Origin: a virus | Lineage: Duplodnaviria; Caudoviricetes | Strand: one strand, 5' to 3' | Virus record (IMG/VR): IMGVR_UViG_3300003465_000373 | Location: 1 to 58,404 of that record | DNA: 58,404 nucleotides | Part shown: positions 7,914-38,256 of the stretch, piece by piece | Position numbering within the stretch: position 1 is the stretch's first letter | Layout of the letters: each line of letters opens with the position of its first letter | Notes under the pieces: generated by a model | What the model was told of the DNA's origin: nothing | Databases searched by the model: none | The model's input: the letters and a program-made list of their open reading frames with translations, nothing else | Position numbers and translations under genes: made by a program

Positions 7914-8014
7914 GGTTGATTGTTTACGGCTTTTGCGGCTTGGGCTGCGGAGCCGGCTGCGGCGTATTCGTTGTGGACATGCCGCCTGGGAGCGATGGAC
8001 TCGGCTTACTCATC

Positions 8015-8413
8015 TCACTTCTCCTTGCAAATGTGGTCCACGATGATCTTCCACTCCTCCTCGGAGCAGAAGCGTCGGTGGGCCTGTTCCCAATACTTGA
8101 TCCTTTCCTCGACGGTCGTTTCATCCCAACAGTGCCGGCACAGGGCGTAGCAGCCTTGGCGGCGTTCGTTGAATGGCACCTTGCGTGGGGCCACGATGTT
8201 GAAAGTAGTGTCGCAGCGGTAGCAGGCTGCGTTCGCCGGATAGAGCCACCGGCTCACCGGGCCAATCCTGGGCTGGCTAGGCGTGCATTCCTTGGGCCTG
8301 ACTGGCGGTGTGGGCACATCCCGAAGCCCGTAGACGAAGTTCTGCATCACGAAACAGCCGCCGACTATGCCTAGAACAACTCCGAGGAAGAAATTGGCGT
8401 AGCCGTTATTCAT
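8015..8413 (-). CDS. membrane-anchored Cys-rich protein
   Basis: N-terminal TM helix, CYRC and CRHC motifs. Confidence 0.6.
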   Translation of the reverse strand: MNNGYANFFLGVVLGIVGGCFVMQNFVYGLRDVPTPPVRPKECTPSQPRIGPVSRWLYPANAACYRCDTTFNIVAPRKVPFNERRQGCYALCRHCWDETTVEERIKYWEQAHRRFCSEEEWKIIVDHICKEK

Positions 8414-8864
8414 GCTTCCTCGCCTGGACCTGGGTGATCTCATTCATGCCGTTGTAGGTGATGATGTAGTACATTCCCTTGGTTAGCGGCATCGAAGGCA
8501 CGCTGTTGAACTCCTTCTCCCGGCCGTCCTCAAAGACCACGATGCAAGTCTTGATCGTCTTGCGGCCAGGCTCAACTTGGACCTCGACCTTGTTGCCCTC
8601 TACCCTCTTGTTCTTCTTGATGTTCTTGGGATCAAGGTCTTGGACTTCCTTCTCGCCCATCTTGACCGTGGCAACCACGCCCTCGATGGTGTAGGACTCT
8701 TTACGCTTCTCCCTCTCGATCTTGGCCTGAGCCTCCATGAGCTTGATGGTGTTGTCCGTCATGTTGTTCATAACCCTTTCAGCCATCCACACTCCGCAGC
8801 CGCTAAGGTTTATTGCCAAGAGGGCTAGGAAAACCACGATCAACGTCTTCATTGTCTTCTCCAT
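8406..8864 (-). CDS. putative lipoprotein
   Basis: Signal peptide ending in the lipobox LSGC. Confidence 0.7.
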   Translation of the reverse strand: MEKTMKTLIVVFLALLAINLSGCGVWMAERVMNNMTDNTIKLMEAQAKIEREKRKESYTIEGVVATVKMGEKEVQDLDPKNIKKNKRVEGNKVEVQVEPGRKTIKTCIVVFEDGREKEFNSVPSMPLTKGMYYIITYNGMNEITQVQARKHE

Positions 8865-9256
8865 TACATCCAGAAGACTGACTCGCCCGTGGCCTTATCG
8901 ACCTCCCAATGGATGCCGAACTTCTGGAGGTCCGACACCATTGCGGAACGTGCTTTTCGCAGGGCGTCCATCATGTATTTGGCAAGCAGGTTGTCCTGCT
9001 GCTTGTAGTCCCCGATCTGCTGCGTCACCGTGCGGATCATGGTGATGAGATCATGAGGGTCGGCCTCGTACTTTTTGTCGGCAATCGTGATTTCCCGACG
9101 CCTGACACGCAGCACCGTGCCGCCTGCCGGCCTGGTCATCAGACCCTTCACCCCCATCATGTGCGGGGCAAGGTCGCCCTTCTTTTTGTCCGTCACGACC
9201 AAAGAATTCTCACTCCCCGCAGGCCGAAGCTCGCCCAAGGGCATTAGATCATTCAT
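8864..9256 (-). CDS. hypothetical protein
   Basis: 130-aa ORF coupled to the downstream gene; AAGGA RBS. Confidence 0.65.
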   Translation of the reverse strand: MNDLMPLGELRPAGSENSLVVTDKKKGDLAPHMMGVKGLMTRPAGGTVLRVRRREITIADKKYEADPHDLITMIRTVTQQIGDYKQQDNLLAKYMMDALRKARSAMVSDLQKFGIHWEVDKATGESVFWM

Positions 9257-9302
9257 TTGATTATCCTTATAGTTGCGGGAGTTATGTGATAAATGACACG
9301 AG

Positions 9303-9375
9303 AGCGGCTGATCGGACTCGAACCGACGACATTGACGTTGGCAACGTCACACTCTACCAACTGAGTTACAGCCGC
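9303..9375 (-). tRNA. tRNA-Gly(GCC)
   Basis: TGACG-TTGCCAA-CGTCA, U73. Confidence 0.93.
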
Positions 9376-9414
9376 AAACAACAGGGCTGCCGAAGCAACC
9401 CTTGACAATCCGTT

Positions 9415-9702
9415 TTACACTACTTTCGTCACCACATACTGATGGTTGTACGGGACTCCATTTGGCAATTCTTCCTTCGGCTTCAAAGCCTGTTCAGGCA
9501 TCTGTTCATATCGAAGTCGCAGAAGTCCCTTGGCGGCTTCGAGTGCATTGTCCGAGCTTTCCGACTGCTGCACCGGAACTTTCCAGTCCCCTGGGCGGCT
9601 GGTGTCCACAGTTGGATGACTCGGCCCCATCGCCACGATCACGCAAGCGATGAAGGTTTTGACTACGTTGTACAGCCCGAACAGGCGGTCATAGGTAGTC
9701 AT
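9415..9702 (-). CDS. hypothetical protein
   Basis: 95-aa ORF; TAGATA upstream. Confidence 0.5.
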   Translation of the reverse strand: MTTYDRLFGLYNVVKTFIACVIVAMGPSHPTVDTSRPGDWKVPVQQSESSDNALEAAKGLLRLRYEQMPEQALKPKEELPNGVPYNHQYVVTKVV

Positions 9703-9759
9703 GTCATAGTATCTATCGGCTCGCCGGGTCTTTTTCCTTAGTAAATCGGGAGTCCCAGC

Positions 9760-10572
9760 TTACCCGAAATCGTAGTAGGATTGTTCGGGGTAGTCGCAGT
9801 CGTTGTCACGGTCACGGCCGTAGGAGCGGCGGTGAGGACCGTGGAAGGTCGGCCTGGCCATAGGGATGATGTTGTCGTCCTTCTCGGCCTTCTCCTCTTG
9901 TGGCTTCTCAGGCTCCTTGGGAGGGGCGACCCGCTTGATTTCCAGGTCACGTTTCTTGCGGTAGTAGCCGCAGAAGTATTCCTTCTCGTTGCGGTTGTGC
10001 TGCCTGGTCCAATCCCGGATCACGTCGAAGTTCACGGCCACCGAAGACTGCAAGAAGTTGTACTCGCTCGTGTAGAGCATCAGTACGCCTTCCAGGTTCA
10101 AGTGCTTGTTCAGAAGGCAGAGTACGTCGTCCCACGGCTTGAACTTGATGGGGCTGTCCATCTGGAACAGCACCATCAGGCAGGTGATAACGTCGTACTT
10201 GCCGGTAGCACCCAATTCCGTGTGGAAGAAGATGCGGTCCTTGTCCTTGTTGTGCTTGCGGGCCTGTTGAATCGAGTAGTAGTCGATGTCCACGCCCACG
10301 ATCTCGGCGTCTGGGAACCGCTTGGCCAGGGCGAAGGCTTCTTCGCCCGTCGAACAGCCGAAGGACAAGACCCGCTTGGCGTCCGGTTGGAACTGCTTGG
10401 CACTGTCAAAGATGAGCGGGAACCGCTCAGGCTTGGTCATATGACTCATCTGGAGGTAGCCTTGGCTGTGCTGGCTGTAGTAGCCAGGCCCGTAATATGG
10501 AACCTTTTCCCCTGGGCGATATTGGGAATGTCCCGAGGGATACGCTTTTGGCTCTTTTGTTTCCACGACCAT
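9760..10572 (-). CDS. SAM-dependent methyltransferase (CheR-like motif)
   Basis: RVLSFGCSTGEE, EIVGVDID, YDVITCLMVL. Confidence 0.85.
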   Translation of the reverse strand: MVVETKEPKAYPSGHSQYRPGEKVPYYGPGYYSQHSQGYLQMSHMTKPERFPLIFDSAKQFQPDAKRVLSFGCSTGEEAFALAKRFPDAEIVGVDIDYYSIQQARKHNKDKDRIFFHTELGATGKYDVITCLMVLFQMDSPIKFKPWDDVLCLLNKHLNLEGVLMLYTSEYNFLQSSVAVNFDVIRDWTRQHNRNEKEYFCGYYRKKRDLEIKRVAPPKEPEKPQEEKAEKDDNIIPMARPTFHGPHRRSYGRDRDNDCDYPEQSYYDFG

Positions 10573-10616
10573 TGCTCCACCAGTGAGGAACTTCGTTTCG
10601 TACAAAAACAACCGAG

Positions 10617-10689
10617 AGCGGCTGACCGGACTTGAACCGGCAATATCTTGGTTGGGAACCAAGTGCATTGCCAATTATGCTACAGCCGC
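10617..10689 (-). tRNA. tRNA-Gly(CCC)
   Basis: CTTGG-TTCCCAA-CCAAG, U73. Confidence 0.92.
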
Positions 10690-10702
10690 ACAGCATGTTG
10701 GT

Positions 10703-10919
10703 GGCGGGAAAGAAGTCCACTTGTGGTTAACGGCCACTGGTTATCTTCTTTCCCGCCGTGTTTTGGAGGCGAGGCCGGTTGGGTTATGAGCCTCGGTCTG
10801 AACCGTTCACCGGCCCCGCCATGTGTGCCAAAAGTAGGCCCCAGAAGAAATGTACCTACCGTTGGCACGAGAAGTGTTTTCCTCGATCCTGCGTTGCAGC
10901 ACAAGACCGAATACTTCTC
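10703..10919 (-). ncRNA. four tandem rod-shaped small RNAs
   Basis: Hairpins at 10703-10757, 10768-10820, 10825-10868 and 10869-10919, each closed by a 7-13 bp stem. Confidence 0.6.
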
Positions 10920-10925
10920 ATTGAG

Positions 10926-10999
10926 TCGGAGAGGTAGGATTTGAACCTACGGCCTTGAGGTTATGAGCCTCACGAGCTACCAGACTGCTCCACTCTCCA
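10926..10999 (-). tRNA. tRNA-Met(CAT), initiator-like
   Basis: TGAGG-CTCATAA-CCTCA; TGGAGCAG..GGTAGCTCG D arm; non-WC 1:72 pair. Confidence 0.88.
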
Positions 11000-11042
11000 A
11001 TAACTACATCGGCTTCAAGCCGTTGCGACTTTAGGCCGTAAA

Positions 11043-11114
11043 TGTCACCGGTGAGAGTCGAACTCACATTACGGGCTTCGGAGGCCCGTGTCCTATCCAT
11101 TGAACGACGGTGGC
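11043..11114 (-). tRNA. tRNA-Arg(CCG)
   Basis: CGGGC-CTCCGAA-GCCCG. Confidence 0.92.
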
Positions 11115-11119
11115 AAAAG

Positions 11120-11192
11120 TACCGGCAGCGGGAGTCGAACCCGCATGGTCGTCTTTATGAGGGACGATGGAGAACCACTACTCCACACCGGC
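11120..11192 (-). tRNA. tRNA-Met/Ile2(CAT), short D arm
   Basis: CGTCC-CTCATAA-AGACG. Confidence 0.75.
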
Positions 11193-11201
11193 GTTTGTTT
11201 C

Positions 11202-11435
11202 TCAGTACCAGCACTCCGCAGGGAGCCGGTCTTCATCTTCGTCATCAGCGACTTGCTTATCGAGGTCAGGCCCGCCAGCAAGGCGTGCCGCCAACTTCCT
11301 TACCTCGTTGATGAGGAAGTTCGTCTCCTCGACGTGATGTCGCTCAAGGTCTTTGTATCGCTCTTCCCAACTCTTGTTGGGGTCCATCTTGTACCTGGGA
11401 ACCTCGATCCAGGCATATCCTATGTAGTCTTTCAT
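11202..11435 (-). CDS. hypothetical protein
   Basis: 77-aa ORF between tRNAs. Confidence 0.55.
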   Translation of the reverse strand: MKDYIGYAWIEVPRYKMDPNKSWEERYKDLERHHVEETNFLINEVRKLAARLAGGPDLDKQVADDEDEDRLPAECWY

Positions 11436-11440
11436 ATCAG

Positions 11441-11512
11441 TGGCCTGCCAGAGAGTTGAACTCTGTTCTCCTGGTTAAGAGCCAGGTACGTCACCACTTA
11501 CGCTTGCAGGCC
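11441..11512 (-). tRNA. tRNA-Lys(CTT)
   Basis: CCTGG-CTCTTAA-CCAGG. Confidence 0.85.
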
Positions 11513-11679
11513 ATTTTTGATCTTGTGGAACCTCTTCAGGATTTCCATACAGCGGTAGGGGTCTTTAACCCTTAACGTCGTCGTGTTCCCACAACTATAC
11601 TCCCGGTAGTTGCCGCCGAGTAGTTGTTTTTCGAGGGCCTCGATGATCCTTCGATACTGTGCTGTTTTCTTCATATAAG

Positions 11680-11752
11680 TACCCCGCCAGAGACTCGAAC
11701 TCTGACCCTACCCGTTAAAAGCGGGAAATGCTGCCTCTAACACCTGCGGGGC
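11680..11752 (-). tRNA. tRNA-Lys(TTT)
   Basis: CCCG-CTTTTAA-CGGG. Confidence 0.85.
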
Positions 11753-11807
11753 ATATCAACTTGTGTCTTGGTATGTTGGACGTTTATGTTTCATCGCTTG
11801 CTCCTTG

Positions 11808-12032
11808 TTAAAACTCTTCGATGGAGTCATCGAACTCGTAATCGGCTACGCCGTAGTCCAAGACCCACTGGTTGTGGTCGATTTCTTCTTCGCCATCACC
11901 GAAGTCTTCGGCACGAACAAGCTCCACGACCTCCACGAACTCGCCGGCCTCGTCGTCAAAGCCCAAGACGGGCTTGCTTCGTTCTTCCGGGGTCATCTGG
12001 GCAATCCGTTCCGCCAATTCGTCAAAAGTCAT
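11808..12032 (-). CDS. acidic hypothetical protein
   Basis: 74-aa ORF, ATGA overlap with the upstream gene. Confidence 0.6.
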   Translation of the reverse strand: MTFDELAERIAQMTPEERSKPVLGFDDEAGEFVEVVELVRAEDFGDGEEEIDHNQWVLDYGVADYEFDDSIEEF

Positions 12033-12302
12033 ACGACTTCTCCCTTGAGTAAGTTTCTGATCGCCTTGGCGATCAATTTGGCTTTCTTCGTCGCCGTCAG
12101 GCCGACGTAATCCTTGCCAGGTTCTCCTTCGAGGATGCTCATGATCTCGTTCGCCGTTCTAAAATAGCGAGTGAGATGTTCATTTCCGAGGGGAAACGAG
12201 TTGAACTCACAGTCCTTCTTCTGACAAAACCACTTGTGCAGCTTCTTGGCTACCTCACGGTTGTCATCCGCTCGCCTAATTCCTCGGGCCATCAAACACA
12301 TG
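12029..12302 (-). CDS. hypothetical protein
   Basis: ORF from MCLMARG with GGTGG upstream; start approximate. Confidence 0.55.
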
Positions 12303-12324
12303 AACACCACCTTTGTTAGAACAG

Positions 12325-12398
12325 AGCGGGATATGGGAGTCGAACCCATCTAAATCCTGCTTGGAAGGCAGGTGCAACAGCCGCAATGCGTATCCCGC
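12325..12398 (-). tRNA. tRNA-Gly(TCC)
   Basis: CCTGC-CTTCCAA-GCAGG, U73. Confidence 0.88.
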
Positions 12399-12403
12399 AA
12401 ATA

Positions 12404-12470
12404 TGTGCGACAAGAAAAAAGTAAGAGGTTCGATGATTAAAAGTCATGTACTCCTACAAACATCCGCACA
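12404..12470 (-). ncRNA. rod RNA capped by a tRNA-Lys(TTT) anticodon stem-loop
   Basis: TGTGCG/CGCACA closing stem, GTAGGAG/CTCTTAC mid stem, apical ATGA-CTTTTAA-TCAT. Confidence 0.65.
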
Positions 12471-12472
12471 AG

Positions 12473-12545
12473 TGCCTCGCCAGGGGATTGAACCCTGCAC
12501 GTCCAGGTTAAGAGCCTGGTGCCTCTCCATTGAAGCGTGCGAGGC
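12473..12545 (-). tRNA. tRNA-Lys(CTT)
   Basis: CCAGG-CTCTTAA-CCTGG. Confidence 0.85.
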
Positions 12546-12551
12546 GTTAAG

Positions 12552-12629
12552 TGGAACTGGCCGGACTCGAACCGAGCATTTTGCCCCTCTTAGGTGGGGT
12601 GGCTTTCTCCTGTTAAGCCTTACAGTCCC
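12552..12629 (-). ncRNA. non-canonical tRNA with Ala-type acceptor and ambiguous CTAA loop
   Basis: GGGACTG/CAGTTCC-A (G3:U70), 5-bp D stem, CCCC-ACCTAAGA-GGGG. Confidence 0.6.
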
Positions 12630-12634
12630 GAGAG

Positions 12635-12731
12635 CGGTGAGAGGTAGGAGTCGAACCTACATCCCCTGAGTTGGACCCCAGGTATCTTAGTCCATGCCAC
12701 CGTCCAAGGTGGACTTTTAGACGACCTCACC
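12635..12731 (-). ncRNA. Trp(CCA)-like tRNA with D-loop hairpin complementary to its anticodon loop
   Basis: D insert CCACC-TTGGAC-GGTGG; anticodon arm CCTGGG-GTCCAA-CTCAGG; normal T arm, G73. Confidence 0.75.
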
Positions 12732-12742
12732 AGAAGAACCAG

Positions 12743-12814
12743 TCGAGCCGGTTGGAATTGAACCAACTACCTACTCCTTATCAGAGAGACGTGCTACCGG
12801 TACACCACGGCTCG
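12743..12814 (-). tRNA. tRNA-Ile(GAT)
   Basis: Loop CTGATAA; cloverleaf. Confidence 0.82.
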
Positions 12815-12927
12815 ATGCGTGCCGGTCCTGGGGCATGGTAAACCTTACGGGCCGGCACACACATCTAATCATATAAATTTATTCTCCTCCCCTCGCCCAG
12901 ATGTGTGAGAAGGCTTAGTTCAGAGAG

Positions 12928-13001
12928 GGTGACTATCGGGAATCGAACCCGAACCTCCAGATTCACAGTCTGGCGTGAACAACCTTTACACCATAGCCAC
13001 C
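12928..13001 (-). tRNA. tRNA-His(GTG)
   Basis: CCAGA-CTGTGAA-TCTGG, G-1:C73. Confidence 0.92.
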
Positions 13002-13006
13002 ATCAG

Positions 13007-13228
13007 TCATCTGTCTTTCGGACAGACTTTCTTCAACGCCTTTTGGATGGCGTCAATCGCTTCGTGTGCGATCCAAATCTGTTCGTTGTGTGACTCCTCG
13101 CTCAACCCCATAGGGCAGTTGAGACTGTGGAGGCATTCACGCAACTCGTCCAACTTCTCGTCAATGAACAACACAGGATTATTCTTCACTGTCTTCCCTT
13201 TCGGGTAGTAATTCGTGACATAGTTCAT
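13007..13228 (-). CDS. hypothetical protein
   Basis: ORF from MNYVTNY. Confidence 0.5.
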   Translation of the reverse strand: MNYVTNYYPKGKTVKNNPVLFIDEKLDELRECLHSLNCPMGLSEESHNEQIWIAHEAIDAIQKALKKVCPKDR

Positions 13229-13266
13229 ATCGACTGTTGGGCCTCGTTTCTTCAATACTTTTTCAG

Positions 13267-13390
13267 TGCCCCTGGCGGGATTTGAACACCGCTCTAACGG
13301 CTTAACAGGCTGTAGTCCTTCGAGGGCATTCCAAGCGGACAAGAAGGTGAAAGACGTTTTTACGTCGTGCTTCCATTACACTACAGGAGC
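13267..13390 (-). ncRNA. tRNA-like RNA with ~50-nt insert between D arm and an Asn(GTT) anticodon arm
   Basis: GCTCCTG/CAGGGGC-A, D arm GTGT-AATGGAA-GCAC, extra hairpins, ACAGC-CTGTTAA-GCCGT, T arm. Confidence 0.7.
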
Positions 13391-13491
13391 GTTTTCCACG
13401 ACCAAATCGAAGAGAGTTTTCTCCCCCGTAAGTGGAGGAGTTCAGAGTCGAACTGAATAAACCATGTACTCCGCTTCAGCATTCGTAGAAG

Positions 13492-13562
13492 CTGTAGACC
13501 AGGGACTCGAACCCCAACTAAGACGTTCAGAGCGTCTCGTGCTGCCATTACACCAGTCTACA
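13492..13562 (-). tRNA. tRNA-Gln(CTG)
   Basis: AGACG-CTCTGAA-CGTCT, U1-A72, G73. Confidence 0.9.
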
Positions 13563-13573
13563 ATGTTTCAAAG

Positions 13574-13700
13574 TGCCAGGGGTAGGAGTCGAACCCACAT
13601 CGCCCGGCTTATAAGACCGGGGCTTTAGTTCACACAGTCCTGTCTAATGTGTGAGTGACAGCGTGCTATTCCGGCCCAATCCGGCTTAAGCTACCCTGGC
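13574..13700 (-). tRNA. tRNA-Ile(TAT) with ~55-nt structured D-loop insert
   Basis: CCGGT-CTTATAA-GCCGG; acceptor GCCAGGG/CCCTGGC-A; D stem encloses two hairpins. Confidence 0.78.
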
Positions 13701-13704
13701 GTAT

Positions 13705-13845
13705 TGGTTGCAGGAACCGGACAGCTACCCCGGTATCTCCCCCAATGTTCCATTGGCGTTCTGGCCTACGGCCGGGGGTATCCTTGCACCCCCATATGCT
13801 GGCGAGTAGGCCAGGTGGTGGAGGCGGCTTTTGAACGATCCTGCG
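13705..13845 (-). ncRNA. tRNA-like RNA with initiator-type acceptor end and encoded CCA
   Basis: C-GCAGGA...TCCTGC-A-A-CCA; internal 9-bp stem CTGGCCTAC/GTAGGCCAG; degenerate T loop. Confidence 0.6.
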
Positions 13846-13847
13846 AG

Positions 13848-13919
13848 CAGCCACGGAAGGACTCGAACCTTCATATCCTGCTTAACAGGCAGGCGAATTA
13901 CCAATTATTCGACACGGCT
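13848..13919 (-). tRNA. tRNA-Asn(GTT)
   Basis: CCTGC-CTGTTAA-GCAGG, G73. Confidence 0.88.
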
Positions 13920-13925
13920 AAAATG

Positions 13926-13999
13926 CTGCTGCGGGGGACTCGAACCACCTCCTGCTCCCTCAAATGGGAGCTATGCTGCCCATGATACACCACGCAACA
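13926..13999 (-). pseudogene. Gln(TTG)-like tRNA with 6-nt anticodon loop
   Basis: GCTCCC-ATTTGA-GGGAGC, U1-A72, imperfect T stem. Confidence 0.6.
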
Positions 14000-14056
14000 G
14001 TTTTGGACCATAACCGAATTGTCAAAGAACTTCCCACCCAGAGGGGGGTTGTCAAG

Positions 14057-14128
14057 TCTCGGAGGCAGGATTCGCACCTGCGACCTGGAACTTATGAGGC
14101 TCCCGAGCTACTGCTGCTCCACTCCGAA
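14057..14128 (-). tRNA. tRNA-Met(CAT)
   Basis: GGAGC-CTCATAA-GTTCC; T loop GTGCGAAT. Confidence 0.82.
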
Positions 14129-14130
14129 AG

Positions 14131-14205
14131 TCGGGATGGCAGGAGTTGAACCTGCGTTCTCCAGTATCCGAAACTGGCGACCACTCCAAGCTGGTCCACA
14201 TCCCG
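14131..14205 (-). tRNA. tRNA-Pro(CGG)
   Basis: CCAGT-TTCGGAT-ACTGG. Confidence 0.9.
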
Positions 14206-14264
14206 GTTTCTTCGGTTTTGGGATGCCGTGTTAAATCGGCAGAGAACCGTCGCCAAACTCTCAG

Positions 14265-14339
14265 TCGGGGGAGGAGGATTTGAACCTCCGTTCTTCTGCT
14301 TCCAAGGCAGACGACCACTCCAAGCTGGTCCACCCCCCG
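14265..14339 (-). tRNA. tRNA-Pro(TGG)
   Basis: TCTGC-CTTGGAA-GCAGA. Confidence 0.9.
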
Positions 14340-14608
14340 ATTACTTCTCCAAGTATTCCAACTCACACCAGGCGAAGCCCCAGCCATCCCAGAACAGGAG
14401 TGCCGTGCCGGCTTGCCAGTTAATCTCCTTTACCAAACCCGCCACGGTCGAAAACATCGGGTCTTCGTACTTCTTGTACTTCCAGAACTCACCGACCTTA
14501 ACTTCCATGATGGTCTACCTCGTGTAAACATCGCCAGTTGTGCTAAAGGACTTATGTGCTCTCCCGAGACTGAATCTGCCTTTTACACCAATACCTCTCT
14601 GGCCTAAG

Positions 14609-14679
14609 CAGGTCCGCAAGGATTTGAACCCTGACTGACAAGGTTGGAGCTTGTCGTGCTGCCGTTACACTACGGACCT
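14609..14679 (-). tRNA. tRNA-Trp(CCA)
   Basis: ACAAG-CTCCAAC-CTTGT, G73. Confidence 0.92.
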
Positions 14680-15024
14680 GTGTATTTCTTCCCAATGCAA
14701 CTTCTTGTGACAGTTAGAACACAAGATGATACACTTGGCTATTTCTTGAAGTATCCTTTCTCTGCTCCATCCATAGGACGCCACTTTGGAGAGTGCCCTA
14801 TCCTTATGACTTGGATCATCGTGGTGAAACTCCAAGCAGGCTTGGTGATCTTCACCGCATCGAGAACACTTCAACACTGACTTGTAGTCAGCGAGCCACT
14901 CTCGTAGCTCAGTTTTTCGTTCCTTGACCTTGCTTTTCGCTCGGTCCTTGTTATTGGCATACCACCGACGCCGATACTCACGGCATTTGTCGAGGTTCGC
15001 CTGTTTCCATTCTGCTGTAGCCAT
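14665..15024 (-). CDS. HNH endonuclease
   Basis: CSRC..DH..CLEFHH and KCIILCSNCH motifs; same family as 296-709. Confidence 0.82.
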   Translation of the reverse strand: MATAEWKQANLDKCREYRRRWYANNKDRAKSKVKERKTELREWLADYKSVLKCSRCGEDHQACLEFHHDDPSHKDRALSKVASYGWSRERILQEIAKCIILCSNCHKKLHWEEIHRSVV

Positions 15025-15166
15025 GCTCTAACATAGTCATGGACTCCAAAACCTCGTCAGCAGTTTGGAGCGGCCAGTGCTGGAACAACCGAGTCGTTTG
15101 CGTGGTTTCCAGTCCCCGTGAGGGGCCACTGACCCGGTGGGCTTTTGGCCCCCGACCGCATAAGTC

Positions 15167-15559
15167 TTATCCCTTCCCCTTTTCGGCACGATCCCGTGCC
15201 ATTTGTTCCCTCCGACGCTCGGCTGAGTGGCAGAAGGGGAAGCGTCTGCTACTCTTCCAAGTTGACTTGCTGCCGTAGCCCCAATTCTTCTTGGAGCGAT
15301 ACGACCGGGCGGCTCCGTCGAGGACATAGGGCGAGTCGTCCAATTCGACCCACAACTGGTGCCACTTCTGCCATTCCCGTCGTGTCCCCTCTGCGGGCCT
15401 GAATATCTCGTGGCCGTCGAGGTAGAACACGTCGCCTTCGAGCGTCAGTTCGCCTTCCAGCTTTGCTCGGCACATCCGCTCGAAGATTGCCTTCTTGCGG
15501 TCGGCCCCCTCAGCCTTGAAGATGCTGAACCGTTCCCTTCGGAACATTTTTGCCATCAT
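15167..15559 (-). CDS. hypothetical protein
   Basis: 130-aa ORF coupled to the upstream gene. Confidence 0.6.
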   Translation of the reverse strand: MMAKMFRRERFSIFKAEGADRKKAIFERMCRAKLEGELTLEGDVFYLDGHEIFRPAEGTRREWQKWHQLWVELDDSPYVLDGAARSYRSKKNWGYGSKSTWKSSRRFPFCHSAERRREQMARDRAEKGKG

Positions 15560-15799
15560 CTACTCCAAATCAGAATTCGGGTCCGGCTCCCCGTTGTCCC
15601 ATTCCATCAGGTCATACGGGTCGCCACTCCACTCGCAGTCACAGCACCGTGCCCAACTCTCGTGGTACACAGTCTCGGGATGACCGCACATGAAACAGGG
15701 GTTGTAGTGGTGCCACGCCTTGCACTTCTTGCACTCGTGGTAGCTGCCCCTCCAGGACACCGACTCACTACCACAAGAAGGACACACGGCCACCAACAT
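15560..15799 (-). CDS. small multi-CxxC Zn-finger protein
   Basis: CPSC, CKKC, CFMC, CCDC. Confidence 0.6.
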   Translation of the reverse strand: MLVAVCPSCGSESVSWRGSYHECKKCKAWHHYNPCFMCGHPETVYHESWARCCDCEWSGDPYDLMEWDNGEPDPNSDLE

Positions 15800-15811
15800 A
15801 GTTCACCCCAT

Positions 15812-15914
15812 AAAACGAAAAAACCGCTTCAAGTTCCCTGGTGAACCTGAGCGGCCTATGGTGTTCCTATGAACCGGCTCAGGTTGACCCTGAAACCGGC
15901 ATTTCGGTTTCAGG
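15812..15914 (-). promoter_or_regulatory. transcription attenuator 1 (terminator plus competing hairpins)
   Basis: Terminator CCGCTCAGGTTC/GAACTTGAAGCGG-T6 (15818-15854); antiterminator AACCTGAGCCGG (15874-15885); upstream hairpin 15889-15914. Confidence 0.8.
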
Positions 15915-15916
15915 AG

Positions 15917-16042
15917 TTATCTCGTATCAATGTTATTTCCCTGTTCGGGCTTGGCTGCGACTGGACGTACCGTCTGCGGCTTGGCATGGACTTGGCCCTG
16001 CCATTTGTGCTGCATACCAGTAGTCGGTCGCATGGAAGACAT
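15917..16042 (-). CDS. leader peptide 1 (41 aa)
   Basis: MSSMRPTTGMQHKWQGQVHAKPQTVRPVAAKPEQGNNIDTR*; AGGAG RBS; stop abuts the first hairpin. Confidence 0.75.
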   Translation of the reverse strand: MSSMRPTTGMQHKWQGQVHAKPQTVRPVAAKPEQGNNIDTR

Positions 16043-16137
16043 TGAACTTAGAACTCCTGTTCTATTTGGTTTCGATTCTGGCTGCCATCACCATGACGGC
16101 AAACATATCTGACGTATATATAGTCGTCAACCGGTAT

Positions 16138-16611
16138 TTATTTCTTCACTTCTTTCGGAATTTCTTTCAGAATTTCTTTCTGGGCCTCCTCTGGCATCTT
16201 TTTCACCAGTTCGGATGAGGACTGGATTTTCTTGCCGAGGCCGTCCACGATCTTGATGCCGAGTTCATCGCAAACCTTCTTCTCCGGGATATTATCGGCA
16301 GTGCGGTCGCCGCCCTTGGCAAAAATATCTGGCTTCCAACTGCTTTTGACGCCTGAGAGCCATTTGAGCGTTTCGCATACGGTATGATCCTTGTCCATAC
16401 AGGCCACGACAAAATCAACGCCCTTCAGGGCCTCGATGATCTTGAGCCGTTCTTTTTGCGGCATAAAGGCGTACCCTTTTTTCGTGACCAAGAATTCGTC
16501 ACTGTTGACGATGACCACGAGCCGGTCGCCCAAGGCCCTAGCCTGCTGGAGATACTCAATATGTCCGACATGAAGGGGGTCGAATCCGCCCGATGCTACT
16601 ACGGTTATCAT
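16138..16611 (-). CDS. cytidylyl/adenylyltransferase (TagD/RfaE-II-like)
   Basis: ASGGFDPLHVGH (HxGH), LVVIVNSD, KPDIFAKGGD, KIQSSS. Confidence 0.9.
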   Translation of the reverse strand: MITVVASGGFDPLHVGHIEYLQQARALGDRLVVIVNSDEFLVTKKGYAFMPQKERLKIIEALKGVDFVVACMDKDHTVCETLKWLSGVKSSWKPDIFAKGGDRTADNIPEKKVCDELGIKIVDGLGKKIQSSSELVKKMPEEAQKEILKEIPKEVKK

Positions 16612-16619
16612 ACACTTAT

Positions 16620-17471
16620 TTAGCGGTGGCGGAACAATTCTCCAATGCCGATCAGGTATTCTTCCATCCCTTCGATCCACGACCGCAGCGGAGGTCGTTT
16701 GTTGTTGATGAGGACGCCGTGATGGGGCCGTTTGGCCAGCGTCATGAAGTTCTTGCTTGACAACTCGTTCACACGGCAGTCGCCCACCGTAAAGTCGATG
16801 ATCTCCCTGGCCCACTGTGACTTGGTGGCCGATCCGTGGTTGGTCAGGTGATAGGTTCCGAAATCGGCCGGTTCACGCACGAGGTCATACACGGCACGAG
16901 CCAGGTCGAAGCTATAAGTCGGGCAGGCTCGCACGTCATTGACGACATCAATCTCATCGTCGTGCCTGGCCCGATCCAGAACCTTGTCGATGAAGTTGGC
17001 TCGCCTGCCGCCAGGCCCAAAAAGCCAAGACGTGCGGACGATCCAGTGTTTATTCCAACTCTGCCGAAGGTATCGCTCGCCAACTAACTTAGTTTGGCCG
17101 TAGACGTTGACTGGCCGAACCGGCTCCCGGCCTTCGTCGTAGCCATTTTCATCCTCCTGCCCGAAGACCATTTCCGTCGAAAAATGCACGATTCTGGCAT
17201 CGTACTTCTTGCATGAGGAAGCCAAGGTCCGTATGGCGTCGGCGTTGATGCACTCACACATATTGGGGTGATGTTGTGCCAAGTCTACGTCCGTGTAGGC
17301 GGCACAATTGATTACAATGTCTGGTCGAAGGTTGGCGATGTGGCAGTTGACCTGGGTTGGGTTGGTGATGTCGCACGTCTTGCGGGAGAACGCCACCATC
17401 GTCTCGAAGGAAAATACTTGGCGTAAGGCGTAGGCCAACATACTGTCGCCGCCCAGGATCAGAACTTTCAT
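16620..17471 (-). CDS. rfbD: dTDP-4-dehydrorhamnose reductase family
   Basis: PDIVINCAAYTDVD, HFSTEMVF, PVNVYGQTKLVGE, IVRTSWLFG, GTYHL. Confidence 0.88.
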   Translation of the reverse strand: MKVLILGGDSMLAYALRQVFSFETMVAFSRKTCDITNPTQVNCHIANLRPDIVINCAAYTDVDLAQHHPNMCECINADAIRTLASSCKKYDARIVHFSTEMVFGQEDENGYDEGREPVRPVNVYGQTKLVGERYLRQSWNKHWIVRTSWLFGPGGRRANFIDKVLDRARHDDEIDVVNDVRACPTYSFDLARAVYDLVREPADFGTYHLTNHGSATKSQWAREIIDFTVGDCRVNELSSKNFMTLAKRPHHGVLINNKRPPLRSWIEGMEEYLIGIGELFRHR

Positions 17472-17472
17472 T

Positions 17473-18150
17473 TTACAACCTGCGTAATTCAAGTTCCATG
17501 TGCATTGGGAACAAACAGTAGTTCACCAACTCGTACTCGCCGTCTGATCGCCACTTGGTATCGAACCACACCAGATGCTTATTTTTAGGGTCGGGATTCC
17601 ACGGCCTAGCCGGTGGCGGCAGTTTGTCTGCGTCCACGACCTGCCCTGGGACAAGTTTCGTCCCTAAAGTCTCTTCCTGTTTAACAGGCTTGGGCAGTTC
17701 TGGCAATGCCTCTGACTTGTCTGGCAGGCAAGGTATGATCGGAACTGGTAGCTTGACCTCGACCGGGACTTGTGGCTGCACGGCAATTATCGGTGGCAGC
17801 AGAATGCTCTCGGCAACTCGCTCGGGCACGACAAACGGCCCGATGATGCTAGGGATGTTGGCCGGCTCGATCTTGATTACCGGTGGCAGAGAGGCTTCGA
17901 GCTTGGGATCAACTTGAACTTCCGTGACCGTCACCATGTTAGCCATGTCGGTGTGGACAATGATAGGTGGAGAAATCTTTCGCATCACCACAACTGGCTC
18001 TTTGACTTCGCCACCGAGGTTGTGGACCCCAACGGGTGGTTCCGGCATGGTCGGAAGTGGTTTTTCCGGTTTCTTCTCTTCGATATGTGGTGCTGGCGGC
18101 GGAAGCGGTTGCTCCTGGGGTGGCGGTGGATTATACGATACTCGGCCCAT
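17473..18150 (-). CDS. Pro/Val-rich hypothetical protein
   Basis: Low-complexity ORF from MGRVSY. Confidence 0.6.
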   Translation of the reverse strand: MGRVSYNPPPPQEQPLPPPAPHIEEKKPEKPLPTMPEPPVGVHNLGGEVKEPVVVMRKISPPIIVHTDMANMVTVTEVQVDPKLEASLPPVIKIEPANIPSIIGPFVVPERVAESILLPPIIAVQPQVPVEVKLPVPIIPCLPDKSEALPELPKPVKQEETLGTKLVPGQVVDADKLPPPARPWNPDPKNKHLVWFDTKWRSDGEYELVNYCLFPMHMELELRRL

Positions 18151-18553
18151 TATCTGTTCCCATACTTGGGTTCTTGGGCTTAGGCTTCTCTCTGGTCTTA
18201 GCTTGGGCGTAGAAAACGAACGACGTATTCTTCTCTGGAAGCTGGCTGCCCTTATACTGTACCTGTCGGTAGACGACATTTAACTTAGTATGAGGGTTCT
18301 CGTATTGCATCATATCCTTGAGACGTGCCAGGATCGAGTCGATAAAAGTGCGGCTACCGGTGATGCGGAGGCCGTCTTCGCCAAAAGTAGAGCCTTTCTT
18401 GCCGGGCTGGATCGGATCAAACTGAATAGGCCCTGGACGGAGGGACTGCCAGTATTGCATGACCTGATCCTTCTGCATCCGCCAACTTTGCGGGGCTACG
18501 TCGTAGCTGCTTGTTGCACCACCAGCTAAGAACTCACGGAAACTCATCTCCAT
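18131..18553 (-). CDS. hypothetical phage protein
   Basis: Starts MEMSFREFL; TAGATA upstream. Confidence 0.65.
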   Translation of the reverse strand: MEMSFREFLAGGATSSYDVAPQSWRMQKDQVMQYWQSLRPGPIQFDPIQPGKKGSTFGEDGLRITGSRTFIDSILARLKDMMQYENPHTKLNVVYRQVQYKGSQLPEKNTSFVFYAQAKTREKPKPKNPSMGTDNGPSIV

Positions 18554-18585
18554 AACGGAGTATCTATACCCGCTGGAGACGAATT

Positions 18586-18972
18586 TCACTTCGGCAAACT
18601 GAGGCCGTGCGGGTGATAACGTCCATCTTTCTTTGATACGAAGACAAAACGAGCATCAGCGATGTGGTCCTTGCCGGCCTTGGCACGGTGCTCACGATAA
18701 GCCTTAACTTCAATCACAATTGCATTGCGACGAAGTTCTTTAATCTCCGCTCGGAGAAAAATGATGTCACCCGCTTCGGCGGCTCCATGAAAAGTGCCCT
18801 CGTACTTGTAAGTAACCGCTGAGTCACATTCGGAGTCATGGAGAAGCCTGTAGGCACAGCAGGCGGCAGCCTTGTCAAGCTCGCTGAAAAACGCACCACC
18901 AAAGATCATGGGATATTGAAAATTGCACTGGTCAGGCATGACCGTGAACGCCGTTTCAAATACAAGATTCAT
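18586..18972 (-). CDS. acyl-CoA thioesterase (hotdog fold)
   Basis: VMPDQCN..MIFGG.FFSELDKAA and ARFVFVS motifs. Confidence 0.85.
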   Translation of the reverse strand: MNLVFETAFTVMPDQCNFQYPMIFGGAFFSELDKAAACCAYRLLHDSECDSAVTYKYEGTFHGAAEAGDIIFLRAEIKELRRNAIVIEVKAYREHRAKAGKDHIADARFVFVSKKDGRYHPHGLSLPK

Positions 18973-19068
18973 GTGCCTTCTCCCACTTTCGCAAATACTC
19001 TACTGCCGAGAGCAGTGTGGCGAACTCCTTGAGCGGCTTTTGATGCTTGCATTTCGAGCACCACTTCA

Positions 19069-20181: not shown

Positions 20182-20197
20182 TGTCCTGCCCTCGCAA

Positions 20198-20434
20198 TTA
20201 TGGGTCTGTGAACCAAATCTGGTCAATATCTCTTGCCATTTCACTGACCTCTTGTTCTGCTTCGAGCCAGAACTCAACGTCCTTGCCATCCGGCTTGCCG
20301 GCAGCCTCCCACTTGAGGTAGGCCCTGCGGCGGACTTCTTCGTAGGCCGCAGGGAGGTCAAACTCCCACAAGTCGTCGTCCTTTTTTTTGAAGAACCTGG
20401 CGACAGTGGCAAACAGGTTTGGGCGGTCTTTCAT
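20198..20434 (-). CDS. DUF2934 family protein
   Basis: VRRRAYLKWEAAGKPDGKDVEFWLEAE. Confidence 0.85.
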   Translation of the reverse strand: MKDRPNLFATVARFFKKKDDDLWEFDLPAAYEEVRRRAYLKWEAAGKPDGKDVEFWLEAEQEVSEMARDIDQIWFTDP

Positions 20435-20435
20435 G

Positions 20436-21614: not shown

Positions 21615-21821
21615 GACGAAGGCCCTGTGAACGTCTTAAGTTAACAGTAAACGATCCTGGTGTTGTCGTTGATGCACGGCCAGATGCACTGAAAAAGCTC
21701 AGTATCCCTGAATGACTTCATATGCTCCCTTGGAACCAACAGCACGTCGATGATAGCCCCTTTGATGGGGATGTGCCAGTTGAGGAAATCTTCGTGTTCC
21801 AACGCTATGAGCTTGCGTCCC

Positions 21822-22008
21822 TCAAATTCCAAGGTCTTCATTCTTCAGTTCCTCATCACCCTTGATCCTAGCTACCATGTTGCTGAGCCACTTGCCAAGG
21901 GTGGTGTCTTCATATTCATCCCAAACCTCCGCAAGAAGAGAATACAACTCCTCTTTGCATTCCTGCATGACTTGTTGCTTCACCAGTTCTTCCTCGTGGT
22001 CGGACATA
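21822..22008 (-). CDS. small hypothetical protein
   Basis: ORF from MSDHEEE just after tRNA-Leu; start approximate. Confidence 0.45.
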
Positions 22009-22010
22009 AA

Positions 22011-28683: not shown

Positions 28684-28686
28684 TCC

Positions 28687-38088: not shown

Positions 38089-38199
38089 AAAAAAACCCTC
38101 CAGACTGGCTTCAGGCTGGAGGGTTCTGAGATTCTTATCTCTATGGTGCTTGCCGACTTACTCATGCTTCTCTTCAGTCGGTACACTTCCCTCCAGCCT
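38089..38199 (-). promoter_or_regulatory. transcription attenuator 2
   Basis: Terminator CCCTCCAG/CTGGAGGG-T7 directly before tRNA-Arg; antiterminator AGGCTGGAGGG (38189-38199) inside the leader ORF. Confidence 0.82.
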
Positions 38200-38256
38200 T
38201 GCGGAATAACGCAAGGACGAAAGACAAAGGCCCAGACTAAAGCAAAACACGTTCAT
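38158..38256 (-). CDS. leader peptide 2 (32 aa)
   Basis: MNVFCFSLGLCLSSLRYSARLEGSVPTEEKHE*; AGGA RBS. Confidence 0.75.
   Translation of the reverse strand: MNVFCFSLGLCLSSLRYSARLEGSVPTEEKHE

What the first reader, a model, noticed from the sequence alone, without database searches (positions are those of the whole stretch)
15812..16058. Attenuator 1 has a five-segment switch consistent with stall-induced read-through
After the leader stop come segment 1 CCTGAAACCG, 2 CCGGTTTCAGG, 3 AACCTGAGCCGG, 4 CCGCTCAGGTTC and 5 GAACTTGAAGCGG-T6. A ribosome reaching the stop would cover 1, allowing 2:3 and the 4:5 terminator. A stall anywhere earlier allows 1:2 and the 3:4 antiterminator. The switch therefore responds to a shortage at almost any leader codon, suiting a multi-amino-acid sensor.
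Basis: partly seen in the sequence, partly recalled or inferred. Interest (0 to 1): 0.85.

Follow-up and report, generated by a model that had tools for sequence, protein, structure and literature searches.

The report
Five-segment attenuator before phage tRNA genes
A giant T4-like phage appears to place a large block of its tRNA genes behind a 41-codon test gene and a five-part RNA switch that lets transcription continue only when ribosomes fail to finish the test gene quickly; I found no paper describing this kind of control for tRNA genes.

Summary
On the minus strand, 2 nt after the stop of a 41-codon ORF (16042-15917), lie five segments. They form four mutually exclusive hairpins (-15.7, -15.0, -19.3, -16.1 kcal/mol), and the last is followed by T6. 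None of 2000 local shuffles gives such a chain.

The window is a fragment of a roughly 0.5-Mb T4-like phage with 49 tRNA genes in two isotype-sorted blocks. The element heads the block for W, P, M, N, Q, H, I, K, G, R, E, D, V and A. Its leader holds all 14 of these residues and is the only 1 of 271 short ORFs without L, F, Y or C.

The other block (L, S, F, Y, C...) is headed by a trp-like attenuator. That leader holds the longest run of block-matched codons in the window. Homologous leaders and terminators occur in 9 related phage records, with compensatory changes in the terminator.

Stall-induced read-through is therefore the best reading. It stays inferred for this element: I could reach no homologue, there is no expression data, and the 2:3 hairpin is weaker than 3:4.

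Earlier notes of this scan describe leader-peptide attenuators before tRNA arrays in other phages. None covers this genome or this five-segment layout. My four paper searches found no published account.

The parts
16102..16130 (-). Sigma-70-like promoter candidate (TTGACG, 17 nt, TATGTT) between the upstream cytidylyltransferase-like gene (stop at 16138) and the leader
   Evidence: 9 of 12 matches. Weak on its own: 3 such sites in 3.5 kb against 2.0 expected.
16054..16058 (-). Shine-Dalgarno-like AGGAG, 11 nt before the leader ATG. Its surroundings (16063-16056) can also pair with the stop/seg1 region ('segment 0').
   Evidence: the major capsid gene has AAGGA at a similar 12-nt spacing; 8-bp duplex, -12.1 kcal/mol.
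15917..16042 (-). Leader ORF, 41 codons plus TAA. It holds all 14 isotypes of the downstream tRNA block and has no Leu, Phe, Tyr or Cys.
   Evidence: ORF; the only 1 of 271 short ORFs without L/F/Y/C, and one of 7 of 271 holding all 14 residues; codon match ranks 3rd of 271.
15905..15914 (-). Segment 1, starting 2 nt after the stop codon; 5' arm of hairpin 1:2
   Evidence: 1:2 is 10 bp, -15.7 kcal/mol
15889..15899 (-). Segment 2; pairs with segment 1 or segment 3
   Evidence: 2:3 is 10 bp with one bulge and one G-U, -15.0 kcal/mol
15874..15885 (-). Segment 3; pairs with segment 2 or segment 4 (3:4 is the antiterminator)
   Evidence: 3:4 -19.3 kcal/mol
15843..15854 (-). Segment 4; 5' arm of the terminator, or 3' arm of the antiterminator
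15824..15836 (-). Segment 5; 3' arm of the terminator hairpin 4:5
   Evidence: -16.1 kcal/mol; terminator scans
15818..15823 (-). T6 tract of the intrinsic terminator, 18 nt before the next ORF's ATG
14665..15799 (-). ORFs between the attenuator and the tRNAs: 79 aa with Cys pairs (15799-15560), 130 aa (15559-15167) and a 119-aa HNH-like ORF (15024-14665)
   Evidence: the 79-aa ORF has no homologue among 5.8 billion proteins. HNH-like relatives sit directly before tRNA genes in other large phages.
712..14679 (-). tRNA block B, 29 ARAGORN calls beginning with tRNA-Trp: W, P, M, N, Q, H, I, K, G, R, E, D, V, A. No strong minus-strand terminator was seen between 15818 and the first tRNA. The block runs to within about 700 bases of the record's end, and nothing beyond that end can be seen.
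   Evidence: the parent contig is 61,170 b against the window's 58,404 b.
38089..38256 (-). Sister element ('attenuator 2'): 32-codon leader (38256-38158), antiterminator strand inside the ORF (38198-38189), terminator (38123-38096) plus T7, directly before tRNA-Arg at 38088 and block A (R, C, G, S, F, Y, L, T; 38088-22011)

Best explanation
This is a ribosome-mediated (leader-peptide) transcription attenuator that gates the phage's second tRNA block and the three small ORFs before it.

Proposed sequence of events (inferred from anatomy):
1. Transcription starts just upstream, or reads in from the preceding operon.
2. A ribosome translates the 41-codon leader.
3. If the ribosome keeps pace and reaches the stop codon, it covers segment 1. 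Segment 2 then pairs with segment 3, segment 4 is left free to pair with segment 5, and the 4:5 hairpin plus U6 terminates transcription.
4. If the ribosome is held up anywhere in the leader, hairpin 1:2 forms (and may also act as the pause hairpin). Segment 3 then pairs with segment 4, the terminator cannot form, and RNA polymerase runs on into the tRNA genes.

The sensing codons all lie before segment 1 rather than inside it. An odd number of segments is therefore needed to give 'stall means read-through'. This layout also lets any of the 41 codons act as a sensor.

The leader is written in the residues whose tRNAs lie downstream and avoids those served by the other block. The likely signal is slow decoding caused by a lack of usable tRNA of these isotypes, or of their amino acids. 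That would give feedback control of the phage's own tRNA supply.

Shown here: the hairpins, their exclusivity, the energies, the geometry, the leader's composition bias, and the conserved sister element.
Inferred: translation of the leader, coupling to RNA polymerase, and the signal itself.
For: Structure
- Four mutually exclusive hairpins of similar strength are followed by T6; 0 of 2000 local shuffles give such a chain.
- State-dependent folds match the proposed logic. With seg1 blocked the fold is 2:3+4:5 (-37.5). With seg1 free, 1:2 then 3:4 form during chain growth.
- 1:2+3:4 is 3.5 kcal/mol more stable than 1:2+4:5, with an estimated barrier of 10.3. The barriers between 1:2 and 2:3 are 11.6-13.6 kcal/mol.
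- The stop codon ends 2 nt before seg1.

Placement
- It is one of only five strong minus-strand terminators in 58 kb.
- It lies after a promoter-like site and an ORF with a Shine-Dalgarno site, 1.1 kb before tRNA-Trp, the first gene of block B.

Leader composition
- It is the only 1 of 271 ATG ORFs of 25-60 codons in six frames without L, F, Y or C, and one of 7 of 271 holding all 14 block-B residues.
- Block-B-only codons are 25 of 41 (60% of the 40 after the ATG, 3rd highest of 271). Block-A-only codons are 5 of 40 (3rd lowest of 271).

Sister element before block A
- It has a trp-like four-segment layout.
- Its codons 4-18 form a run of 15 codons all readable by block-A tRNAs. This is the longest such run among 26,349 runs in all six frames.
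- Homologous Leu/Ser/Phe/Tyr-rich leaders with terminators stand before Leu/Ser/Phe/Tyr tRNA arrays in 9 related records, giving 8 distinct sequences counting the window.
- In the alignment, 6 of 18 pairs carry compensatory changes.
- Cys and Arg codons occur in the first 18 codons only in the window's leader. Its array is the only one that begins with tRNA-Arg and tRNA-Cys.

A second, unrelated phage
- In an unrelated 494-kb phage with no gp23 homologue, a Leu-rich 15-codon leader plus terminator precedes seven tRNA-Leu genes.
- In the same phage, a 39-codon mixed leader whose 3' part can pair with the terminator's 5' arm precedes a mixed array.
Against: - No homologue of this element, of its leader or of the ORF behind it was reachable. 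There is therefore no conservation or covariation test for the five segments.
- The one relative with a Trp-first block (G001) is cut 144 nt before its tRNA-Trp.
- The promoter match is no better than chance.
- 3:4 is 3.7 kcal/mol more stable than 2:3, with a barrier of about 8.6 kcal/mol. Part of the fully translated transcripts should still switch to the antiterminator.
- The naked RNA can pair its Shine-Dalgarno region with the stop/seg1 region, and its minimum-energy fold flips between the two states as it grows.
- The codon match is imperfect. Of the 41 codons, 5 are read only by block-A tRNAs and 9 by no tRNA in the window. All three Ala codons differ from the one that block B's tRNA-Ala reads.
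- With 16 residue types in 41 codons, sensitivity to a mild shortage of any one should be low (PMC1183508, passages read).
- By loose criteria, chains of four hairpins occur at 7 other places in the window.
- One relative (G002) shows no leader within 5 kb upstream of its Leu/Ser/Phe array. Some arrays of the unrelated phages also lack one.
Confidence: 0.6

Rival explanations
1. It is an ordinary intrinsic terminator closing the upstream sugar-nucleotide operon, or a set of RNA-stabilising or processing hairpins before the tRNA precursors. On this reading the 41-codon ORF is a chance frame or an unrelated small protein, and the overlaps among the hairpins have no regulatory role.
For: - The hairpin plus T6 is a good terminator in its own right.
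- No other terminator lies between the upstream gene's stop at 16138 and this site.
- The promoter match is at chance level.
- Chains of overlapping hairpins occur elsewhere in the window by loose criteria.
- No homologue shows that the ORF is conserved.
Against: - 0 of 2000 local shuffles give the chain.
- The ORF is the only 1 of 271 that lacks L, F, Y and C, and it holds every isotype of the block downstream.
- The stop codon sits 2 nt before seg1.
- The other tRNA block is headed by a conserved, codon-matched attenuator.
Confidence: 0.15
2. It is a real antiterminator/terminator switch, but one set by a factor other than the ribosome's position. Candidates are a phage or host RNA-binding protein, an uncharged tRNA as in a T-box, or a small RNA that stabilises 1:2 or 3:4.
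For: - The repeated, nearly identical arms could be binding sites.
- Phages of this size encode many proteins of unknown function, including the Cys-pair 79-aa ORF just downstream.
Against: - No Rfam family, T-box included, matches at E < 9.
- The motif is not repeated elsewhere in the window.
- This reading explains neither the ORF's composition nor the position of the stop codon.
- The sister element follows the leader-peptide pattern.
Confidence: 0.12
3. It is ribosome-mediated but not isotype-specific. It would be a general gauge of translation capacity or of transcription-translation coupling, opening the tRNA block whenever ribosomes lag for any reason, with the leader's composition incidental.
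For: - In this layout any delay, including failure to initiate, favours 1:2 and 3:4.
- Each residue type supplies only 1-5 of the 41 codons, so specificity is diluted.
Against: - The absence of L, F, Y and C (1 of 271) matches the split of isotypes between the two blocks.
- The same split is seen in relative G001.
- Both points argue that the composition was selected.
Confidence: 0.13

Closest known systems
E. coli trp operon attenuator (trpL): regions I-IV, pause hairpin I:II, antiterminator II:III, terminator III:IV. Basis: passages of PMC1183508 read, otherwise recalled.
   Same: - A short translated leader sits before the regulated genes.
- Mutually exclusive hairpins end in an intrinsic terminator.
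- A ribosome that reaches the stop favours termination, and a stalled one favours read-through.
- The first hairpin could serve as a pause that synchronises ribosome and polymerase.
   Different: - There are five segments, not four.
- All sensing codons lie before segment 1 rather than inside it.
- Without translation, trp terminates (I:II and III:IV). Here 1:2 and 3:4 would give read-through.
- The leader has 41 codons of 16 residue types rather than two adjacent Trp codons.
- The genes controlled are tRNA genes of a phage, not biosynthetic enzymes.
- No Rfam leader family matches.
his operon attenuator of Salmonella/E. coli, with its longer chain of alternating hairpins (recalled; only named in the abstract of PMC1183508)
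   Same: A relay of more than three alternative hairpins passes the ribosome's position down to the terminator.
   Different: - As I recall it, the his leader has an even number of segments and a run of His codons inside the first segment. It senses one amino acid.
- Here the number of segments is odd and the sensor is the whole ORF.
Multivalent leaders (thr: Thr and Ile; ilvGMEDA and ilvBN: Ile, Val, Leu) and the pheST leader, which controls a translation-apparatus gene (all recalled, not checked in a paper)
   Same: - One leader responds to several amino acids.
- pheST shows that attenuation can control the decoding machinery.
   Different: - Those leaders cover two or three amino acids. This one covers about 14-16.
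- None of them controls tRNA genes, as far as I know and as far as four literature searches show.
The Leu/Ser/Phe/Tyr-rich leader plus terminator family found here before tRNA arrays of the same phage clade (window 38089-38256; loci L090, L102, L106, L107, L108, L110, L111, L112, L116)
   Same: - It occurs in the same genome, on the same strand, in the same position relative to a tRNA block.
- Its leader is also written in the block's own isotypes.
   Different: - That family is a four-segment, trp-like design with its sensing codons inside segment 1.
- There is no sequence similarity to the element studied here.
T-box riboswitches (recalled)
   Same: They are transcription attenuators that respond to the state of tRNA.
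   Different: - A T-box binds uncharged tRNA directly, needs no ORF, and controls synthetase and amino-acid genes.
- No T-box match was found here.

Membership tests
Ribosome-mediated (leader-peptide) transcription attenuators | Short ORF with a ribosome-binding site in the 5' leader of the regulated genes | tested here: met
   A 41-codon ATG ORF (16042-15917) has AGGAG 11 nt upstream. The capsid gene has a similar spacing. Translation itself was not shown.
Ribosome-mediated (leader-peptide) transcription attenuators | Intrinsic terminator between the leader ORF and the first regulated gene | tested here: met
   The 4:5 hairpin (-16.1 kcal/mol) plus T6 lies at 15854-15818, 18 nt before the next ATG.
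Ribosome-mediated (leader-peptide) transcription attenuators | Antiterminator that shares an arm with the terminator, and further upstream alternatives linked to the ORF | tested here: met
   3:4 (-19.3) uses the terminator's 5' arm. 2:3 and 1:2 overlap in turn. Seg1 starts 2 nt after the stop.
Ribosome-mediated (leader-peptide) transcription attenuators | Regulatory codons cognate to what the regulated genes supply | tested here: inconclusive
   At residue level the match is strong: all 14 block-B isotypes are present and L, F, Y and C are absent, which is true of 1 of 271 ORFs. At codon level the match is moderate: 27 of 41 codons are readable by block-B tRNAs, 5 only by block A and 9 by neither.
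Ribosome-mediated (leader-peptide) transcription attenuators | Conservation of the ORF and covariation of the hairpins in relatives | not testable with these tools
   No homologue was reachable. The test was met only for the sister element.
Ribosome-mediated (leader-peptide) transcription attenuators | Read-through depends on leader translation and rises on starvation or tRNA shortage | not testable with these tools
   This needs an experiment. No sequencing run was listed.
Curated Rfam leader families (Trp, His, Leu, Thr, Phe leaders and similar) and T-box | Match to the family's covariance model at or above its gathering score | tested here: not met
   The best hit in 15750-16200 is the trpB motif at 17 bits against a cut-off of 59, E = 9.3. 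Nothing reached gathering score anywhere in the window except tRNAs.
Intrinsic (Rho-independent) terminators | G+C-rich hairpin directly followed by a U-tract | tested here: met

The most novel reading that the evidence does not exclude
The phage splits the genetic code between two tRNA operons and guards each with a leader peptide written in that operon's own isotypes.

- Block A (Leu, Ser, Phe, Tyr, Cys...) uses a trp-like four-segment switch.
- Block B uses this five-segment, odd-parity switch. It turns a whole 41-codon ORF into a broad sensor, so that loss of any one of about 14-16 tRNA species opens the operon.

Such loss could come, for example, from host anticodon nucleases or from phage-induced decay of host tRNAs. 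Together the two switches would give the phage feedback control of its tRNA supply. On this reading, Leu, Phe, Tyr or Cys shortage would not induce block B.
Probability: 0.45. Interest if true: 0.85.

Novelty: new variant of a known kind. Interest (0 to 1): 0.72.

Why it matters
Leader-peptide attenuation is a textbook mechanism, but it is known for genes that make amino acids and for a few synthetases. I found no account of it for tRNA genes.

If the reading is right, giant phages measure decoding speed directly and make a set of tRNAs only when those codons are read slowly. That would bear on why large phages carry near-complete tRNA sets and how those sets are expressed. It would also bear on how phages may answer host defences that destroy tRNAs.

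The element adds a design point. Placing the sensing codons before the first segment and using an odd number of segments makes one leader respond to many residues. That property can be tested directly and reused in synthetic circuits.

It also gives a practical rule for finding tRNA-linked regulators in metagenomic phage genomes.

Tried and rejected
Searches for a homologue of the element or of its neighbours. All drew a blank or hit unrelated contexts.
- The 79-aa, 447-aa and 130-aa neighbouring ORFs had no relatives in viral contigs or in 23 related records.
- An exact pattern of segments 1-3 had 0 hits in viral contigs.
- The leader peptide had no candidates among 5.8 billion proteins.
- The 79-aa ORF matched only itself.
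- tblastn and blastn of the leader and element against 1.6 Mb of fetched loci gave nothing below E = 0.06.
- Attempts to extend relative G001 beyond its cut 5' end failed: metagenome pattern 0 hits; its tRNA-Trp matched only G001; a neighbouring 270-aa protein was found in metagenome contigs without tRNAs and not in genome contigs.
- The cytidylyltransferase-like gene upstream has only 36-41% relatives, in other contexts.

Other checks
- Sequencing runs: none was listed.
- Rfam gave nothing at E < 9.
- The segment motif is not enriched, so a dispersed-repeat or operator reading is rejected.
- A promoter-like word seen upstream of the relatives' leaders is not enriched in the window.

Method notes
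- A first chain detector with gapless stems missed the bulged helices.
- A looser detector (-12 kcal/mol) found many chains and was tightened.
- The HNH-like ORF before tRNA-Trp in both the window and G001 was considered as a synteny anchor. I dropped it because equally similar copies sit before other tRNAs in other phages.
- Supplementary files of papers were not consulted.

Full report
WHAT IS THERE. The finding lies on the minus strand. Reading 5' to 3' the region holds the following.
- A sigma-70-like site, TTGACG-17-TATGTT, at 16130-16102.
- An AGGAG at 16058-16054.
- A 41-codon ATG ORF at 16042-15920, with TAA at 15919-15917.
T6 follows at 15823-15818.

Folded alone, the four neighbouring pairs give -15.7, -15.0, -19.3 and -16.1 kcal/mol. 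Each pair shares a full arm with the next, so only 1:2+3:4 or 2:3+4:5 can coexist.

IS IT MORE THAN CHANCE?
- The 121-nt stretch folds 4.5 sd better than its shuffles.
- None of 2000 dinucleotide shuffles of the 108-nt core yields a chain of four hairpins under my criteria, and one yields three.
- Over the whole window the same criteria find such chains at 2 minus-strand and 6 plus-strand loci, against 9 in 24 shuffled strands. The chain by itself is therefore not unique.
- What is unique is the combination. It follows a short ORF's stop by 2 nt, lies outside the long ORFs, and ends in one of only five strong minus-strand terminators in 58 kb.
- The arm motif is not a dispersed repeat.

CONTEXT.
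- The window is a whole IMG/VR record, estimated at 12% of a genome. It carries a T4-type major capsid protein and a portal with an intein.
- Its capsid protein has 381 relatives at about 80% identity in viral contigs, some on contigs of 223-533 kb.
- ARAGORN finds 49 tRNA genes, all on the minus strand, in two blocks.
- Block A (38088-22011) holds R, C, G, S, F, Y, L and T.
- Block B (14679-712) holds W, P, M, N, Q, H, I, K, G, R, E, D, V and A.
- The element sits 1.1 kb upstream of tRNA-Trp, the first gene of block B. Three small ORFs and no further strong terminator lie between.
- The 533-kb relative G001 shows the same split: a Trp-first mixed block, and a Ser/Phe/Leu/Tyr block on the other strand.

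THE LEADER MIRRORS ITS BLOCK.
- Among 271 ATG ORFs of 25-60 codons in all six frames, the leader is the only one with no Leu, Phe, Tyr or Cys. It is one of seven that hold all 14 block-B residues.
- With simple wobble rules, 27 of its 41 codons are readable by block-B tRNAs. Block-B-only codons rank 3rd highest of 271 and block-A-only codons rank 3rd lowest.
- The match is not perfect. Two Ser codons, one Arg codon and two Thr codons are read only by block-A tRNAs under these rules. Nine codons are read by no tRNA in the window.
- Eight of those nine (all but the Pro codon) are of types whose tRNAs lie in G001's mixed block: Thr-GGU, Ala-GGC/UGC, Val-UAC, Arg-UCU and Gln-UUG. The window's block reaches to within about 700 bases of the record's end, and the parent contig is only 2.8 kb longer. 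This remains a possibility, not a result.

THE SISTER ELEMENT SHOWS THE PRINCIPLE IS REAL IN THIS CLADE.
- Directly before block A lies a 32-codon leader (38256-38158) followed by a terminator and T7. The T-tract ends one base before tRNA-Arg.
- Its RNA has a trp-like four-segment layout. The codon-bearing 5' half pairs with the 3' half. A 10-nt stretch of that 3' half (38198-38189) is identical to part of the terminator's 3' arm and so can pair with the terminator's 5' arm.
- Codons 4-18 are all readable by block-A tRNAs. This is the longest such run among 26,349 runs in the six frames of the window.
- Homologous Leu/Ser/Phe/Tyr-rich leaders of 24-27 codons, each 20-30 nt before a G+C-rich terminator with T6-T8, stand before Leu/Ser/Phe/Tyr tRNA arrays in G001, G003, G024, G025, G026, G027, G028, G029 and G030. 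Counting the window, these are eight distinct sequences.
- In the 8-sequence alignment, 6 of 18 consensus pairs show compensatory changes, mainly in the terminator stem.
- Cys and Arg codons appear among the first 18 codons only in the window's leader. Its array is the only one that starts with tRNA-Arg and tRNA-Cys.
- One relative, G002, shows no such leader within 5 kb of its array. One pattern hit (L117) was a plain terminator after a gene.

A SECOND, UNRELATED LINEAGE. In a 494-kb phage without a detectable gp23 homologue:
- a 15-codon Leu-rich leader plus terminator lies just before seven tRNA-Leu genes;
- a 39-codon mixed leader, whose 3' part can pair with the 5' arm of the following terminator, lies 850 nt before a mixed array;
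- a Glu array, and the array of a third phage, showed no such element.

HOW ATTENUATOR 1 MOST LIKELY WORKS.
- A ribosome with the stop codon in its A site should cover about 12 nt downstream, which is 8 of the 10 bases of seg1.
- With seg1 blocked, the fold is 2:3 plus the terminator.
- With seg1 free, growing-chain folds give 1:2 and then 3:4.
- At full length, 1:2+3:4 (-37.0) beats 1:2+4:5 (-33.5), and the estimated refolding barrier is 10.3 kcal/mol. Conversions between 1:2 and 2:3 cost 11.6-13.6 kcal/mol. On the time scale of transcribing 20-60 nt these states should persist.
- Because the sensing codons lie before seg1, an odd number of segments is what makes 'ribosome late' mean 'read-through'.

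THREE QUALIFICATIONS.
1. 3:4 is 3.7 kcal/mol more stable than 2:3, and the barrier is about 8.6 kcal/mol. Termination after complete translation should therefore be leaky.
2. The Shine-Dalgarno region can pair with the stop/seg1 region (-12.1 kcal/mol). The naked transcript's best fold alternates between the two states as it grows. 'No translation' is therefore not simply 'read-through'.
3. The attenuation model of PMC1183508 (passages read) states that sensitivity falls when regulatory codons are a small fraction of the control region. This leader should respond to severe, not mild, shortage of any one species. That fits loss of a tRNA better than slight amino-acid limitation. This last step is my inference.

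HOMOLOGUES OF ATTENUATOR 1. None was reached.
- The leader, the element and the ORFs behind it have no relatives in the collections searched.
- G001's Trp-first block begins 144 nt from the record's cut end.
- Attempts to recover the sequence beyond that end failed, although a 673-kb parent contig exists.
- The five-segment structure thus rests on a single sequence.

COMPARISON WITH WHAT IS KNOWN.
- The element works like the leader-peptide attenuators of amino-acid operons. It meets their sequence-level defining features: a short ORF with a ribosome-binding site, a terminator, an overlapping antiterminator and upstream alternatives tied to the ORF.
- It matches no curated Rfam leader or T-box model.
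- It differs from trp in segment number, in the placement of the sensing codons, in the predicted default state, in the breadth of residues sensed and in the genes controlled.
- Four full-text searches gave no paper on such control of tRNA genes. I saw only listings and the starts of abstracts, plus passages of PMC1183508. Details of the his, thr, ilv, pheST and T-box systems are recalled, not checked.
- Earlier notes of this scan report leader-peptide attenuators before tRNA arrays in other phage genomes and also found no publication. None concerns this genome or a five-segment layout. They are unchecked leads that agree with my reading, which I had formed before looking.

VERDICT.
- It is a new variant of a known kind of regulator.
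- Confidence in ribosome-mediated, stall-induced read-through is 0.6.

Noticed in passing
window 38089-38256 (-); loci L090:12394-12561, L102:~230-420, L106:4058-4218, L107:4085-4241, L108:306-472, L110:7442-7604, L111:8393-8557, L112:1124-1285, L116: A trp-like four-segment attenuator with a Leu/Ser/Phe/Tyr(/Cys/Arg)-rich leader heads tRNA block A. It has homologues before Leu/Ser/Phe/Tyr tRNA arrays in nine related large-phage records. The alignment shows compensatory changes at 6 of 18 consensus pairs, mostly in the terminator stem, and a hairpin in every leader at the same position.
   Followed up: yes
window 712-14679 and 22011-38088 (-); G001 (L082-L086): The tRNA genes are sorted into two blocks by isotype: Leu/Ser/Tyr/Phe and a few others in one, and the rest in the other. 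The same split, with tRNA-Trp first in the mixed block, is seen in a 533-kb relative, where the blocks lie on opposite strands.
   Followed up: partly
L124:5964-6084 and L122:4897-5085 (record G031, 494 kb, no gp23 homologue): An unrelated huge phage has a 15-codon Leu-rich leader plus terminator directly before seven tRNA-Leu genes. It also has a 39-codon mixed leader, whose end can pair with the next terminator's 5' arm, before a mixed tRNA array. Its Glu array showed no such element.
   Followed up: partly
window 14665-15024 (-); L084:10-156; L091-L099: HNH-like endonuclease ORFs (44-53% identical to one another) sit immediately upstream of tRNA genes of various isotypes in several large phages. 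This suggests homing elements that target tRNA arrays.
   Followed up: partly
window 16056-16063 with 15914-15921 (-): The Shine-Dalgarno region of leader 1 is complementary to the stop codon/segment 1 region (8 bp, -12.1 kcal/mol). This possible 'segment 0' could block re-initiation or bias the untranslated RNA towards termination.
   Followed up: partly
window 7754-7826 and 13925-14000 (-): ARAGORN calls two tRNA-like genes with a two-base 'anticodon'. Neither is among the Rfam tRNA hits.
   Followed up: no
window 52425-55004 (-): The T4-type portal gene carries an intein splicing domain (Pfam PF14890) in front of the portal domain.
   Followed up: no
window 16138-23152 (-): Between the two tRNA blocks lie genes that look metabolic: indoleamine 2,3-dioxygenase-like, ADP-ribosylglycohydrolase, thioesterase, RmlD-like reductase and a cytidylyltransferase-like protein.
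   Followed up: no
window 45033-46469 and 24432-24764 (-); L086:18159-18359, L087:2823-2981, L082:5584-5757: A stretch of about 55-65 residues of the capsid-gene ORF, and of ORF 24432-24764, matches several separate places in G001 at 53-77% identity. It may be a repeated module or a mobile insert of unknown nature.
   Followed up: no
L106, L107, L108, L110, L111, L090, L112: 26-54 nt upstream of the leaders' start codons: A conserved word (ACTAC, C or T, ATA, G or A) precedes the relatives' Leu/Ser/Phe/Tyr leaders and may be part of a phage promoter. It is not enriched in the window (6 matches against 7 expected).
   Followed up: partly
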